From Octopus sinensis (Eukaryota), in NCBI RefSeq assembly GCF_006345805.1, contig NC_043005.1, forward strand, positions 99,696,001 to 99,760,000: a stretch of DNA of 64,000 bases, in the 5' to 3' direction. Of the stretch, positions 1-57,511 are shown in pieces. Under the pieces are notes generated by a model that was not told where the DNA came from, did no database searches, and saw only the letters and a program-made list of their open reading frames with translations. Both the position numbers and the translations under genes were made by a program. Position 1 is the first letter of the stretch; every line of letters begins with the position of its first letter.

Positions 1-934
1 AAAGGCCTCTCGCTCAAAGTAAAAGGCAGACTGTATGATGCATGTGTACGAACAGCCATGCTACATGGCAGTGAAACATGGGCCGTGACTGCTGAGGATA
101 TGTGTAAGCTCACAAGAAATGAAGCCAGTATGCTCTGATGGATGTGTAATGTCAGTGTTCATACTCGACAGAGTGTAAGTACCTTGAGAGAAAAGTTGGA
201 CCTAAGAAGCATCAGTTGTGGTGTGCAAGAGAGACATTTGCGCTGGTATGGTCATGTGGTGAGAATGGATGAAGATAGCTGTGTGAAAAAGTGCCACACC
301 CTAGCGGTTGAGGGAACCTTTAGATTAGGCAGACCCAGGAAAACCTGTGATGAAGTGGTGAAGCACGACCTTCGAACTTTAGGTCTCACTGAGGAAATGA
401 ATAGAGACCGAGACCTTTGGAAGTATGCTGTGCATGAGAAGACCCGGCAGGACAAGTGAGACCATAACCCGTGGCCTCTACCTGGGATGTAGCCAGTCCA
501 CTTATGCATACCTTTCCTTCTTGGGACACAAAACTCTACTTGTGAAGACCTGTTGAGGCAAGTGAAAATCCAAAATCAAAATCAAAATCGATCAACATCA
601 ATGGAAATTGCAGTTGCGATACCAGTGCTGGTGGTACATAAGAGAACCATCCGAATGTGGCTGTTGCTAGTGCCGCCCCGACTGGCCTCATGCCGGTGGC
701 ATGTAAAAAGCACCATCCGATCGTGGCCGTTGCCAGCTTTGCCTGGCCTCCGTGCCGGTGGCACGTAAAAAGCTCTCACTACACTCATGGAGTGGTTGGC
801 GTTAGGAAGGGCATCCAGCCGTAGAAACTTTGCCAGATCAGACTGGGCCTGGTGCAGCCATCTGGCTTCCCAGACCGCAGTTGAACCGTCCAACCCATAC
901 TAGCATGGAACACAGACGCTAAACAATGATGATG

Positions 935-3364: not shown

Positions 3365-3861
3365 TTTATTCCAAACTGATTGAACAATGCCCTGCTTTTT
3401 AAACCTCTCTTCTACATGGAGTTGATAAGAAATGGTTGGCTGGAATGGTTAAATAATTTGGTAACATTTTTACACCATATTTTGTTCTTTAATCATTTTG
3501 CATCAGTCAAAAAAGTTATTTGAGATATCTTCCTCCCGAAAATTTGCCAATTTAGAGATTAGACAGCTCATATTGGTGTGAGAAATTATGGGGGAAATAT
3601 TTCATGGAACTTGATGATATACAACTGAAATTATATTTAATAAACAGGAAACAATAAACAAATAAATAAAAATGTCCAAGAAATTGGAACCATTATGCAG
3701 AATGATCAGCAAAAATAGAATCTAATGTTGCAGTGGAATATGTTGTTTTGTTTTGGAAAATGTATACAGGAAAACGAGAAAAAGTCTATTGATAATTTCA
3801 TCAACAGCTTTCAAAGTCAGTTAGTTCTCTCATCTTGACATTCTCACCTTAAGAATATTAA

Positions 3862-3897
3862 GATAATAATAATAATGATGATGATGATGATGATGAT

Positions 3898-3932
<35 letters not shown>

Positions 3933-3994
3933 TAATAATAATGATAATAATAATAATAATGATAATGATAATAATGATAATAATAATAATAACA

Positions 3995-4058
<64 letters not shown>

Positions 4059-4098
4059 TAATAATAATAATAATGATAATAATAATAATAATAATATA
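3862..4098. repeat. (AAT)n/(ATG)n compound microsatellite
   Basis: Directly visible. Confidence 0.97.
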
Positions 4099-5519
4099 AA
4101 GAATGAGTAAAAGAAAAATGAAGATCTTAGCTAGAAATTTGCCGATAACTTTCTGTAAATAATCAATATTTTATCACCTGTGTAAACCTGTGCCATTACA
4201 CCTAAACTTGCCTAACAAGATTTAGTCATCTTCTTCTTATAATTCTTCCCCGCCTCTTATATAGCCACAAGAAGCAACTGAAATATTGCCTTACACAACA
4301 AACTGAGGTTACCACTGGTTGTTAGATTGCTGCATATTTTATAGATCTACTTGAAATTCCAGTGAATGTCTTCAAGTTACCAAAACTTTGCATCATCTGA
4401 TTAGTAAATGGGTTAAAGCGTTTGTCAAATTATTTGATTAATTTATCTATTTATTTGTCAAATTCGCTCTACACTGTCTAAAAGCAGTACAGACTGGTTT
4501 AACGGAAGCAAAAATATCAAACCCTTGTATAACCTGCTCATTTTCTTGTTGTGAATGTATAGTTCCTGAAAGTACAACACCAATAATTATTCACTACCAT
4601 ATGACCCGGTGTTGCCGTGTCTAGAGCTAGTGCTTGTTGTTCGTTGCTGGGTCGCAGTAAAAATTTCTCACTAAATCAAGAGCTAAGTTTCTTATCACAT
4701 TTCACCCTGGGTCAGTTTTGTTGTTTATGAGATAGTTGGAGCTTTTTATTAGAGTAATTAATAATCATTGGACTTTGGTTTTCACACCTGGAATGGTATA
4801 TACATGGAAAATTAGCAGGACTGTGCCCATGCCATTAATCAGACAAAATAGGAGGCAGAAGAAAGCAAAAAACTGGAATTTGGCAGAAAAATAACTTATG
4901 GGCATAAGGGGTCGGTTTATCAATTTTTTAATGGCTTTCTGGGAGACTGGGGAACTGAAATGATCTTCATGACCACCCTCAGACAGTTTTGAAAGCCCAT
5001 AGAAAATGCGAGCCTGTTATGTGAAAAACTGTGGATTTGTATAAAGGACACACAGATACACAGACGTTTTGCTGTTTATAGATATAGAGATTATTCGGAT
5101 ATTCAGTGCCTGAGATTCTTCATTCTTGAATAACCAAATTTTATGACTGAGCACTATCATATTTAACATTATGCATGTGAAACAATCACTACTAGCCAGA
5201 ATAGAACCCAGGATTACTGATATCATGGATTACAATGGAAATCAACAAATCTTTGCTGCAGACTCCATAAAGTACTAGGTCGAACACCTTGCAATATTTC
5301 TTCTGTGATCTGAGTTCAAATCCCAATAGAATCAATTTTGCCTCCCATCCTTTGAGAGTAATAAATATGTACCCTGTAGTTTTTTTGTCTCTTAGTGTTT
5401 CTTCTGAGATCTCCATTTCCAACACCACTGGGAGGTGGCCCTCAAAGTCGCTGGAAATGGAGATCTCCAGGTCCAAATTCTTGGACGGCTGCAAGACACA
5501 CAAACATATACATAAATAA

Positions 5520-14839: not shown

Positions 14840-15252
14840 CCTTATTTCTTTATTGCCCACAGGGGGCTAAACATAGAGGGGACAAACAAGGACAGACAAA
14901 GGGACTAAGTCAATTACATCGACCCCAGTGCATAACTGGTACTTAATTTATCAACCCTGAATGGATGAAAGGCAAAGTTGACCTCGGCGGAATTTGAACT
15001 CAGAACATAATGGCAGATGAATTACCTATTTCTTTACTACCCACAAGGGGCTAAACACAGAGAGAACAAACAAGGACAGACAAATGGATTAAGTCAATTA
15101 TATCGACCCCAGTGCATAACTGGTCCTTAATTTATCGACCCCGAAAGGATGAAAGGCAAAGTTGACTCAGCGGAATTTGAACTCAGAACGTAATGACAGA
15201 TGAAATACGGCTACGCATTTCGCCCGGCATGCTAACGTTTCTGCCAGCTCAC
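14840..15252 (-). mobile_element. SINE family A with a tandemly duplicated 3' half
   Basis: The block CCCACA.GGGGCTAAACA..GAAAGGCAAAGTTGAC..GAACTCAGAAC occurs twice (about 14840-15022 and 15027-15205). Confidence 0.85.
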
Positions 15253-15412
15253 TGCTTCTTTTGGTTTCCATGTACCAAATCAACTCCTAAGGCTTTGGTC
15301 AGCTTGAGGCTGTTGTAGAAGACACTTGCCAGGGTGTCATGCAGTGGCACTGAACCCGAGACCACATGGATAGGAAGCAAGTTTCTTAACCACACAACAC
15401 AGCCACACCTGT
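15253..15412 (-). mobile_element. SINE family B head
   Basis: GGCTTTGGTC..GTAGAAGACACTTGCC..ACTGAACCC. Confidence 0.8.
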
Positions 15413-42933: not shown

Positions 42934-44487
42934 CAGTAGTTTTATTTTTATAGCGTGCTTTCACTTCACTACCGAGCGCAGCTCTGTGTGCCTTGGGTAT
43001 GTGCTGTGATTTGTTGTGATGCTCTGATGGTTATTGTATGGAAAGTGTTCTGCGTAGGATGTGTGCAGTGCCTAGTAGTGCAATTTTCTGTATGTTATAT
43101 GTGTTTGTAAGTCCTGGTGTTTTTGTTATGTATTTGTCTGAATATTTTTTTATCATGCCTAATGCACCTACTATGATAGGAATTGTTTCTGTTTTCAGAT
43201 TCCACATTCTAGTTACCTCTATTTCCAGGTCTTTGTATTTGAGAGTTTCTCCATTTCTTTTAGAGACACGTTGTCATCAGCCGGTATTGATACATCAATT
43301 AGAAAGCATTTTTTTCCTTCATGATCTCTGACAACTATATCTGGTCTGTTGGCCTTAATTTCTCTATCTGTGTGTATCAGCATATCCCAGAGTATGGTTG
43401 CTTTCTCGTTTTCTGTGACCTTTTCTGGTGTGTGCCTATACCATCTTTTTCTGTTGTTATTCCATAATGTTGGCATAGCTTCCAATGTATGTAGGTTCCA
43501 ACTCTGTCATGTCTGTGAATATATCCTTCTTAGCCAGGACTGGGCAGCTAGAGATAATATGATTTATTGTTTCTTGTCCATCTCCACATATTCTGCAGTT
43601 ACTTGTAATATTTCTTTTCATTACATGTTTTTGGTAATTTCTGGTGGGGAGGCTTTGGTCTTGTGCTGCAATTAAAAATCCCTCTGTTTCTGCTTTGAGT
43701 CCTGAGCTTCTCAACCATTGCTGGGATTTTTCTTTGTCTATTTCTTTTGCATTTAGTTTAGTCCAGTATTTGCCATGAAGGGGCTTTTCTTGCCATCGTT
43801 TTATCATGGTTCGTTGCTGTTCTACTTTTAGTTTGGATTTCATTTGTTTTATAGCTTTTGTTGTTTCTTCATCTTCTTCTTCGTCTTCTTCTTCTTCTTC
43901 TTCTTCTTCATGTTTATTAGGTGGTATGATTTCTTGTTTGTATTTGTCAGCTTCCTTAAATACTGAGAACAGTTTTTTGTTTTGCTCGTGTTTTGCCGCT
44001 ATCTGGATCAGTTTTCCTTCCTTCTGAAGTAGATATTTTTGCAGTCCTATGGTGGTTATTTTATAGTAGTTTTCCAGCTGTATAAGGTCTCTACCACCTT
44101 CTATACGTTGTATATATAGTCTTTCTATGTCAGATTTTGGGTGATGCATCCTAGATCCTGTCATTATTTTTCTTGTTTTCCTATCTATTTTGGTCAGTTC
44201 ATTTCGTGTCCAGTTAAGGATATTGTAGCTGTAACTTATAACTGGGACAGCTAAAGTTTTGATACCTATTATCTTGTTTTTAGCATTGAGCTCTGTTTTT
44301 AGTATTGATCTAACTCGTCTATAATATTCTTTTTTATTTTCTCTTTCATTTGTGTGTGTTGTGTCTTATCTAATTCATGGATTCCTAAGTATTTGTAAGT
44401 TTGGCTTTGGTCTAATTCTTTTATTTCATTGGTTTTATCTAGTGTGATGTTGTTACTCTTAACTAGTTTTCCTCTTTTCATGGTTAC

Positions 44488-55571: not shown

Positions 55572-56438
55572 ATATATATCCCTCATAAACATACACCTAG
55601 TTACAGCCAAACAACTCCTTACCTATTCACCCACATCCAGCCACACACACGTGTGTATGCATGCATGCACACACACAGTCTCTCTCTCTCTCACACACAC
55701 ACACTCATGAACCAGTATCTGTCTGGTTGAGTGCGTCAACTGGTTACTATTTCCTTGCTGAATCTTATTCGTTAGACCCAGTTATCTTTTCAATTATTGA
55801 TTCAATAAGAAAAGAGAACAGCAGAATGGCTAATCTCTTTCACTTTCACTATCCACTTCGAAACAAACGTTGTCGTCGTCGTCGTTGTTGTTGTTCATGT
55901 TGCTGTAATGGACAAAATCTTTGCTATGTAGCTTAGATGAAAGCTGTAATGACAAAGTCTTGCAACCCTCAGGCAAAAGTGTACTCAATCAGTGGACTGA
56001 TTACCACACTGAATATTCATAAAAATGGCATCTTTACTTTGCAGGTATTGGTAGTTCTTATCATAGTATTAAACTCAAACTGGTAAATAGTTCCATCTCG
56101 AAGAATAACTATTAATGGCTTGCAATAAAATAAAGTTGTTTTTTTTTATCTTCTTTTCTTTTGCTTTTTACTTAGTTTTAATTTTTATCCTCCATTTCCT
56201 TCCTTAATTCTTCAATTCTTATCATCGTCAATGTCATCTTCATCTTTCCTCTTCTATAATTTTCGAATAGGTTTAGTATTTACAGAAAAGTGATGGAATT
56301 TCCTGAAATGGTTGAATACCAAATTCTGTATGTTTTGTTTCTGTATTTAGGTTCAAGTCTTCTGGTAGTCAATTGTTTCTTTTATCTCTCTGCGGTATTT
56401 GATGACATGAATACAATAATACAATAATTCCTGGTAAT

Positions 56439-56611
56439 GCACCTTGCCCTCAGCAAGCATGATGCAGCGAGTTGTGCACCGTTTCTGCAGCACATGACTT
56501 GGCCGCCCGTGTGCCACCGTGTTGCCTCCCTTGCAATCTGCCTGCTGCTGCCAGTCAGCAACTAGCATCGGCAATCTACCTGACCTGTCTTGAAACACGG
56601 ACCAAGGAGTC
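56439..56611 (+). pseudogene. 28S rRNA fragment (end of the D2 expansion segment plus conserved core)
   Basis: GACCTGTCTTGAAACACGGACCAAGGAGTC (56582-56611) differs at one base from the conserved eukaryotic 28S GACCCGTCTTGAAACACGGACCAAGGAGTC, and a GC-rich tract precedes it. Confidence 0.85.
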
Positions 56612-56621
56612 CCAAAAAAGT

Positions 56622-56854
56622 AAGGTGGTGAGCTGGCAGAAGCGTTAGCACGCCAGGCGAAATGCTTAGCGGTAATTTGTCTGCTGCTACGTTCTGAGTT
56701 CAAATTCCACCGAGGTCGACTTTGCCTTTCATCCTTTCGGGGTTGATTAAATAAGTACCAATTACGCACTGGGGTCAATGTAATCGACTTAATCCCTTTG
56801 TCTGTCCTTGTTTGTTCCCTCTATGTTTAGCTCCTTGTGGGCAATAAAGAAATA
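56622..56854 (+). mobile_element. SINE family A, full length, fused downstream of the 28S fragment
   Basis: Well-preserved head, core and tail AATAAAGAAATA. Confidence 0.92.
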
Positions 56855-57511
56855 ACAATAATTCCTGATAATATACTATGATTGTTTGATGGATTAGATA
56901 GTGCCATTTTACAGATGGGTTGGATCTTCCCTTAGTCATGGATCAAATCCTATCCTTACTGATGGATCAGACTCACCTTTATTAACCTGGAAAATAATGA
57001 GAGAGAGTTCTAACATAAGCACAGAATTATATGTTTCAACTCTTTATTGTTTTACTCTTTTCCTTGTTCCAGTCATGTGCCTGCGGTCATGCTGGAGCAC
57101 TGTCTTTATGACTGTAATATTTTCTTTCTTCCTTCCTTGTACCATCTTGTCAAGAAGTGTCTCCTGGTAATTCCTTAGGAAGTTGTATGTAAATTTTCAT
57201 ATAAGAACACAAAAGTGGTCTCTTGTTGTCTTCCTTTCGATGTATTTTTATAAGAGAACTCTTATCAGATCCATCGTTACAAGAATTTTCATTTATGTTT
57301 TTTATCAAAAGAAAGACATGTTGCTAAAAATATTCCAAAACATAAATGAAAATGAAATCAAAAATAAATCAAAAATAAATAATTAAATTAAGTAATAAAA
57401 AAATAAAAATTAAATTGATTAAATAACAAATAAAGTAAATGAAAAATGAATCAAAAATAAATCAAAAATTAAATCAGAGACATGTTACTGAAAGTAAATC
57501 AAGTATTTGAC

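What the first reader, a model, noticed from the sequence alone, without database searches (positions are those of the whole stretch)
56421..56872. Chimeric 28S rRNA-SINE retro-insertion inside one 18-bp target-site duplication
Seen: ACAATAATTCCTGGTAAT (56421-56438) and ACAATAATTCCTGATAAT (56855-56872; 17/18 identical) flank a unit made of ~170 bp of sense 28S rRNA-derived sequence, a CCAAAAAAGT linker and a complete family A SINE. Other family A copies here also have 12-17 bp TSDs. Established: LINE reverse transcriptases make chimeras by template switching (for example U6-L1), and 28S-derived SINE heads are known in other animals. Inference: one event in which RT copied the SINE RNA and then jumped to a 28S fragment, possibly an oligoadenylated decay intermediate given the A6 linker. 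It could alternatively be a member of an undescribed 28S-headed SINE subfamily.
Basis: partly seen in the sequence, partly recalled or inferred. Interest (0 to 1): 0.75.

Follow-up and report, generated by a model that had tools for sequence, protein, structure and literature searches.

The report
Single 28S rRNA–SINE chimeric retro-insertion
A piece of 28S ribosomal RNA sequence and a complete SINE sit together inside one 18-base target duplication at a site that is empty in a related species, so they were likely pasted in together when a reverse transcriptase jumped from one RNA to the other, a kind of accident already known from mammals and lizards.

Summary
Observation confirmed. An 18-bp direct repeat (17/18; the only two matches in 64 kb) encloses 416 bp: 173 bp of 28S-like sequence, a 10-nt A-rich linker and a full-length tRNA-type SINE. 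One contig of a related organism (E) joins the two flanks with exactly 434 bp skipped, so its site lacks both parts and has one repeat copy. Organisms A, B and D carry the flank–28S–SINE junction. The SINE alone has no duplication of its own. The last 44 nt match eukaryotic LSU rRNA at 38–40 of 44. The first 127 nt could not be aligned to any 28S; they look like a decayed, CpG-rich hairpin (indirect support only). Contig depth and counts give no sign of a multi-copy 28S-headed family, but a human-DNA filter weakens that test. Best reading (0.7): one target-primed insertion in which reverse transcriptase copied the SINE RNA, then jumped onto a broken, probably A-tailed 28S RNA. This is a new member of a known kind (human 28S/L1, lizard U6/SINE chimeras): a neat, probably neutral fossil. 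Interest 0.3.

The parts
56421..56438 (+). Left copy of the 18-bp target-site duplication; its G at 56434 is a change after insertion
   Evidence: Organism E's empty site follows the right copy through 56868 (A): the piece 56861-57033 has 4 other letters, all listed elsewhere.
56439..56565 (+). GC-rich, CpG-decayed segment; inferred 3' part of the 28S D2/ES7 expansion segment
   Evidence: GC 0.60, top 0.08% of 127-nt windows. TpG+CpA 31 vs 14.9 expected, 0/20000 shuffles, 10 of 499 tiles as high. Folds as a long hairpin only when TG/CA are read as CG: 0/300 controls; 2 of the 80 GC-richest tiles score lower. No direct alignment to any 28S.
56566..56611 (+). Conserved LSU rRNA core just 3' of D2, sense strand, ending near RF02543 model position 675
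   Evidence: 38-40 of 44 identical (56568-56611) to L001-L005. L002 and L005 are RF02543 hits. High-depth contigs in the laid runs read C at 56575 and 56581. Same sequence as published primer 900F (PMC7694287).
56612..56621 (+). Linker CCAAAAAAGT. The first C may still be 28S and the last T may belong to the SINE; the C-A6-G between them fits neither part
   Evidence: Next letter is C in 3 of the 5 LSU loci; several SINE copies begin TAAGG; the longest SINE contig pieces listed for each of the four runs start at 56621.
56622..56854 (+). Full-length SINE of the window's main family: tRNA-like head with A- and B-box-like motifs read by eye, shared body, and the 3' tail type also seen at 2079-2308 and 15252-14843
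   Evidence: Very high contig depth in all four runs. ARAGORN calls no tRNA in the window.
56855..56872 (+). Right copy of the target-site duplication (ancestral allele)

Best explanation
A 28S rRNA fragment and a full-length SINE lie inside one 18-bp target duplication at a site that is empty in a related organism, and they were likely inserted in one event in which a LINE reverse transcriptase copied the SINE RNA and then probably jumped onto the 3' end of a broken, likely A-tailed 28S RNA. Shown: the duplication, the empty orthologous site lacking both parts, the lack of a duplication around the SINE alone, and the LSU identity and sense orientation of the last 44 nt of the rRNA piece. Inferred: a LINE endonuclease made a staggered cut 18 nt apart; reverse transcription was primed on the SINE 3' tail and ran off its 5' end; it moved end-to-end onto a 28S decay fragment ending C-A6-G; it stopped about 173 nt further on, inside the GC-rich hairpin of D2; repair sealed the duplication. 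The copy has since decayed, mostly at CpG, and is probably a neutral single-copy fossil.
For: Empty site: X9 record 25 has contiguous record positions 551|552 mapping to 56861 and 56426 on one strand; the skip is 434 = insert 416 + one 18-bp copy. Filled site: contigs span flank-28S-linker-SINE head in A (X1 rec 1) and B (X2 rec 9, 0 differences), 56433-56656 in D (X8 rec 18), and SINE tail-right flank in A and D. SINE-only duplication: best 4 nt, reached by 200/200 shuffles; whole unit 18 nt, 0/200. LSU core. The order and same-sense orientation match human 28S/L1 chimeras (n=18, 83% sense, 50-482 nt; PMC13174262 passages). Template switching occurs with L1, L2 and RTE, and six U6/AnolisSINE2 chimeras are reported (PMC4476161 passages). 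Broken 28S with A or A-rich tails exists in human cells (PMC1474067 passages). RtcB ligation needs a 2',3'-cyclic phosphate and a 5'-OH and falls sharply with a 3'-OH or a 5'-triphosphate (PMC6789731 passages); a tailed fragment and a full-length Pol III transcript would be expected to carry those poor ends (inference). Age fits: 4 non-CpG differences in 233 nt from the read-majority letters shown, against 21/550 flank differences to E.
Against: The empty site rests on one contig of one run (1 of 5 listed organism-E runs was laid). The branch between E and A/B/D is long enough for two separate insertions. The first 127 nt were not aligned to any 28S, and Rfam sees no LSU in the window. CpG decay looks heavier in the rRNA piece (7 CpG kept against an excess of about 17 TpG/CpA, roughly 70%) than in the SINE (6 of 16), which could mean the rRNA piece is older; both estimates are rough. 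A 9-nt linker is too short to prove a tail, and a human survey found no convincing A-tailed truncated 5S/U2 retrocopies (PMC5322556 passage). U6/Alu-type chimeras were not reproduced experimentally (PMC4476161). The partner LINE was not identified: the SINE tail matches only SINE copies in the window.
Confidence: 0.7

Rival explanations
1. One insertion, but the two RNAs were joined before reverse transcription (RtcB-type or other RNA ligation), and the linker is an extra 5' stretch of the SINE transcript or junction debris rather than a decay tail.
For: It gives the same DNA product. RtcB joins U6 to L1 and to other RNAs (PMC6789731), and PMC13174262 leaves ligation and template switch open for 28S/L1. 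If the SINE transcript carried upstream flank cut by an endonuclease, it would have a 5'-OH.
Against: The SINE is complete to the start used by the other copies, and the A-rich linker lies on the rRNA 3' side; both point to ends that RtcB uses poorly (inference).
Confidence: 0.12
2. Two insertions in sequence: an A-tailed 28S retropseudogene made the 18-bp duplication first, and the SINE later landed between its tail and the right repeat without a visible duplication of its own.
For: C-A6-G looks like the tail of a stand-alone rRNA retrocopy (tailed LSU fragments are described in PMC4994717). The rRNA part seems more CpG-decayed than the SINE. 2 of 11 other copies show no duplication and 4 only marginal ones. 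The E-to-ABD branch allows two steps.
Against: No duplication flanks the SINE alone (4 nt, 200/200). The SINE ends in its normal tail directly against the right repeat. Both same-tail insertions tested (2079, 15252) have 14-16 nt duplications. None of the four organisms laid shows an intermediate state.
Confidence: 0.11
3. The unit is one copy of a low-copy SINE subfamily whose master already carried a 28S-derived 5' extension.
For: SINE subfamilies with 5' extensions and rRNA-derived SINEs exist (PMC4494074; PMC4994717).
Against: No other SINE copy in the window has the extension.
Confidence: 0.07

Closest known systems
[quoted passage not shown]
   Same: Sense 28S fragment 5' of a retroelement in one insertion; its size (173 nt) is within the reported 50-482 nt; ligation or template switch proposed.
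   Different: The 3' partner here is a non-autonomous SINE, not L1. The fragment comes from the D2/post-D2 region rather than the 3,636-4,115 hotspot. An A-rich linker is present. The host is not a mammal (likely an octopus; my inference from recalled repeat types, not confirmed by any search).
U6/SINE chimeras: U6/AnolisSINE2, U6atac/Alu, U6/RTESINE1 (PMC4476161; passages seen)
   Same: A structural-RNA piece joined 5' of a SINE, in the best cases inside one target duplication, ascribed to template switching.
   Different: The 5' piece here is an internal, 5'- and 3'-truncated rRNA fragment, not an snRNA.
SINE28 (PMC4994717; passages seen)
   Same: 28S-derived sequence followed by an A-rich tract and flanked by a target duplication.
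   Different: [quoted passage not shown]
Octopus-specific 28S break in helix 88 (PMC13321053; abstract and first part of the text seen)
   Same: A natural source of 28S fragments in the likely host group.
   Different: That break is at nt 4322/4323 in H88; this fragment ends near RF02543 position 675 of 3401, so it is not a product of that break.

Membership tests
Chimeric retrocopy (RNA fragment/retroelement in one insertion) | One target-site duplication encloses both parts, none encloses the 3' element alone | tested here: met
Chimeric retrocopy (RNA fragment/retroelement in one insertion) | Orthologous empty site lacks both parts and has one repeat copy | tested here: met
   X9 record 25; skip 434. 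One contig, one run.
Chimeric retrocopy (RNA fragment/retroelement in one insertion) | 5' part derives from a cellular RNA, same sense as the 3' element | tested here: met
   Last 44 nt match LSU rRNA in sense
Chimeric retrocopy (RNA fragment/retroelement in one insertion) | The whole 5' part aligns to the host's own 28S | tested here: inconclusive
   No host 28S obtained; indirect support only
Chimeric retrocopy (RNA fragment/retroelement in one insertion) | Join made during reverse transcription rather than by RNA ligation | not testable with these tools
   Both routes give the same DNA; argued from end chemistry only
SINE28 | [quoted passage not shown] | tested here: not met
   Ends near model position 675 of 3401
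28S-headed composite SINE subfamily | Many loci share the 28S-SINE junction | tested here: inconclusive
   Single-copy depth and few contigs argue against it, but the human-like filter and divergence limit sensitivity; no assembled genome held
RTE-mobilised SINE insertion signature (PMC6007223, abstract) | Duplication starts with T about 10 nt downstream of a T stretch | tested here: not met
   The duplication starts with A and the 20 nt upstream hold no T stretch; one site only
tRNA-derived SINE | Head with Pol III A and B boxes, dispersed high copy number, short tail, duplications | tested here: inconclusive
   Copy number, tail and duplications met; boxes read by eye only; ARAGORN negative; family name (OR1/OR2/OK) not determined

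The most novel reading that the evidence does not exclude
The unit is a copy of an undescribed SINE subfamily with a 28S D2-derived head joined through the A-rich tail of an rRNA decay intermediate, i.e. a composite SINE caught near its birth, with other copies hidden from the contig test by the human-DNA filter.
Probability: 0.07. Interest if true: 0.6.

Novelty: new member of a known kind. Interest (0 to 1): 0.3.

Why it matters
It is a clean, dated example outside vertebrates (host likely an octopus, unconfirmed) of a reverse transcriptase fusing a piece of rRNA to a SINE, the step thought to supply new SINE heads. If the C-A6-G linker is a decay tail, such insertions are a fossil record of germline rRNA surveillance ends and favour end-to-end template jumping over RtcB ligation, which a genome-wide survey could test. 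The insertion is also a presence/absence marker separating organisms A, B and D from E. As a single, decayed, probably neutral copy it changes no current model.

Tried and rejected
No whole genome was held, so the junction could not be counted genome-wide. Rfam on the window gave no LSU hit and two chance snoRNA hits at E 3.9 and 8.8, rejected. Pattern scans for a close 28S found nothing in viral contigs or metagenome contigs. The patterns fixed a T at 56575 that one search shows as C in high-depth contigs, so those blanks mean little. The five LSU loci from genome contigs do not align upstream of the core (shuffles reached the observed score in 85-281 of 300); D2 is hypervariable (own knowledge). 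Searching translated frames for spurious rRNA ORFs gave nothing or 9 repetitive hits, of which I looked at 2 and rejected them. The fragment as it stands folds no better than shuffles (z +1.1). The octopus H88 break was checked as a source and rejected by position. Supplement searches of PMC13321053 and PMC13282606 held no matching sequence. A full-text search for a SINE motif gave one unrelated paper, so the host and the SINE's published name stay unconfirmed. No RNA holder was listed. Organism B's right flank was not covered. The 155-aa ORF across the insert (56353-56820, -) has no Pfam hit and is treated as chance. Earlier findings of the scan: none in 3 look-ups. Literature searches for a 28S/SINE chimera listed none by title or abstract start; I read passages of only some listed papers, and subscription papers and unseen supplements may hold such cases.

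Full report
Observation. The two 18-mers are at 56421-56438 and 56855-56872 and differ at one position. They are the only matches in the window at up to two mismatches; 0 of 100 shuffles gave two. They enclose 416 bp: a 173-bp GC-rich piece (56439-56611), the linker CCAAAAAAGT (56612-56621) and a SINE (56622-56854). The SINE gave 18 BLAST hits in the window including itself; the 173-bp piece hit only itself. Other copies start at the same AAGG or TAAGG and fall into several 3' tail types; this copy is complete at both ends.

Is the 5' piece 28S? Rfam does not see it. A pattern from its 3' end retrieved 5 loci among prokaryote assemblies. Two of the five match RF02543, eukaryotic LSU rRNA, at E<=0.001, and window 56568-56611 is identical to the five at 38, 40, 39, 40 and 40 of 44 positions. 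In the Rfam alignment this is the hairpin and linker just after the D2 region, ending near model position 675. A published internal primer, 900F, has the same sequence (PMC7694287, one passage). High-depth contigs in the laid runs read C where the window has T at 56575 and 56581. So the last 44 nt are sense LSU rRNA. The first 127 nt did not align to the five distant loci, and protein-level detours found nothing. Support is indirect: GC 0.60, in the top 0.08% of the window; TpG+CpA 31 against 14.9 expected (0 of 20000 shuffles; 10 of 499 tiles as high); no unusual folding as it stands, but a long hairpin when TG and CA are read as CG (0 of 300 matched controls; 2 of the 80 GC-richest of 501 tiles score lower). 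This fits a decayed CpG-rich expansion segment but does not prove it.

One event or two? Public runs from several coded organisms hold the region. I laid 4 of the 24 listed runs, one each of organisms A, B, D and E. In E (X9), record 25 maps to 56050-56426 and 56861-57033 with adjoining record positions 552 and 551 on one strand; I read this from the table of pieces, since the joints table was cut. The skip is 434 bases, the insert plus one repeat copy. E therefore lacks both parts, and it carries the right-hand allele of the repeat. A and B have contigs from the left flank through the 28S piece into the SINE head, D has one over 56433-56656, and A and D have contigs from the SINE tail into the right flank; B's right flank is not covered. 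The SINE alone has no duplication (best 4 nt, 200 of 200 shuffles), while the whole unit has (0 of 200); of 11 other copies 5 had clear repeats, 2 of them in microsatellite, 4 marginal ones and 2 none. Against the read-majority letters that were displayed (22 rows were not), the SINE has 6 CpG decays, 4 other changes and 10 CpG kept; the flanks differ from E at 21 of 550 sites. This puts the insertion near the split from E (inference). Against one event: the rRNA piece seems more CpG-decayed (roughly 70% by a crude excess count) than the SINE (6 of 16), and the empty site alone cannot exclude two steps on one branch.

One copy or a family? That argues against a large 28S-headed family.

Mechanism. 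The structure is what target-primed reverse transcription gives when two RNAs are copied in turn (established for LINEs; own knowledge and PMC4476161 passages, which report L1, L2 and RTE chimeras and six U6/AnolisSINE2 cases). The 28S match ends at 56611 or 56612 and the SINE starts at 56621 or 56622, leaving C-A6-G. Broken human 28S carries A and A-rich tails (PMC1474067 passages). RtcB ligation needs a cyclic phosphate and a 5'-OH and is much reduced by a 3'-OH or a 5'-triphosphate (PMC6789731 passages), the ends expected on a tailed fragment and a full-length Pol III RNA. I therefore favour an end-to-end template jump (0.7) over prior ligation (0.12), two insertions (0.11) or a subfamily (0.07). 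The tail reading is the weakest step: it rests on nine letters, and a human survey found no convincing tailed truncated 5S or U2 retrocopies (PMC5322556 passages). The partner LINE is unknown. The site lacks the RTE signature described in PMC6007223 (abstract; sequence), and the SINE tail matches only SINE copies in the window.

Comparison and novelty. Human 28S/L1 chimeras are catalogued (n=18, 83% sense, 50-482 nt; PMC13174262 passages). SINE28 comes from the 28S 3' end and does not apply (PMC4994717 passages). SINE subfamilies with 5' extensions and module exchange by template switch are described (PMC4494074, PMC4758252 passages). The octopus H88 break lies at nt 4322/4323, far from this end (PMC13321053 abstract, part 1 of 6 of the text and a supplement search). 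That the host is an octopus is my inference from recalled repeat types; passages of PMC4824008 and PMC13282606 and sequence searches of papers did not confirm it or name the SINE. Four literature searches listed no 28S/SINE chimera, within an open-licence library only. Verdict: real, well supported as a single chimeric insertion, a new member of a known kind, interest 0.3.

Noticed in passing
window 43457-44365 (-): 302-aa open frame with a zf-RVT hit (PF13966, E 3e-6); by recalled motifs it looks like the C-terminal part of an R4/Dong-type LINE. It is the only clear LINE coding remnant among ORFs of 110 aa or more.
   Followed up: partly
window 14843-15258 (-): Same-tail SINE followed directly by a 5'-truncated second copy, both inside one 16-nt duplication: a tandem or nested SINE insertion. 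Similar tail-to-body joints appear in public contigs (table 5).
   Followed up: partly
window 2079, 3147, 7036, 9902, 13348, 38491, 42453, 42697, 53743: The SINE family shares head and body but has at least three different 3' tails, suggesting tail swapping between partner LINEs.
   Followed up: partly
window 56410-56428: Two tandem 8-nt units overlap the start of the left repeat; run X1 (organism A) lacks one unit.
   Followed up: no
window 57044-57115: Fragment of a second high-copy repeat, 7 further hits in the window and very high contig depth.
   Followed up: no
window 610-880: The only other stretch with GC near 0.6; it belongs to another dispersed repeat family with internal repeats.
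   Followed up: partly
L001-L005: Five bacterial genome or MAG records hold short contigs with the eukaryotic LSU rRNA core, likely contamination.
   Followed up: no
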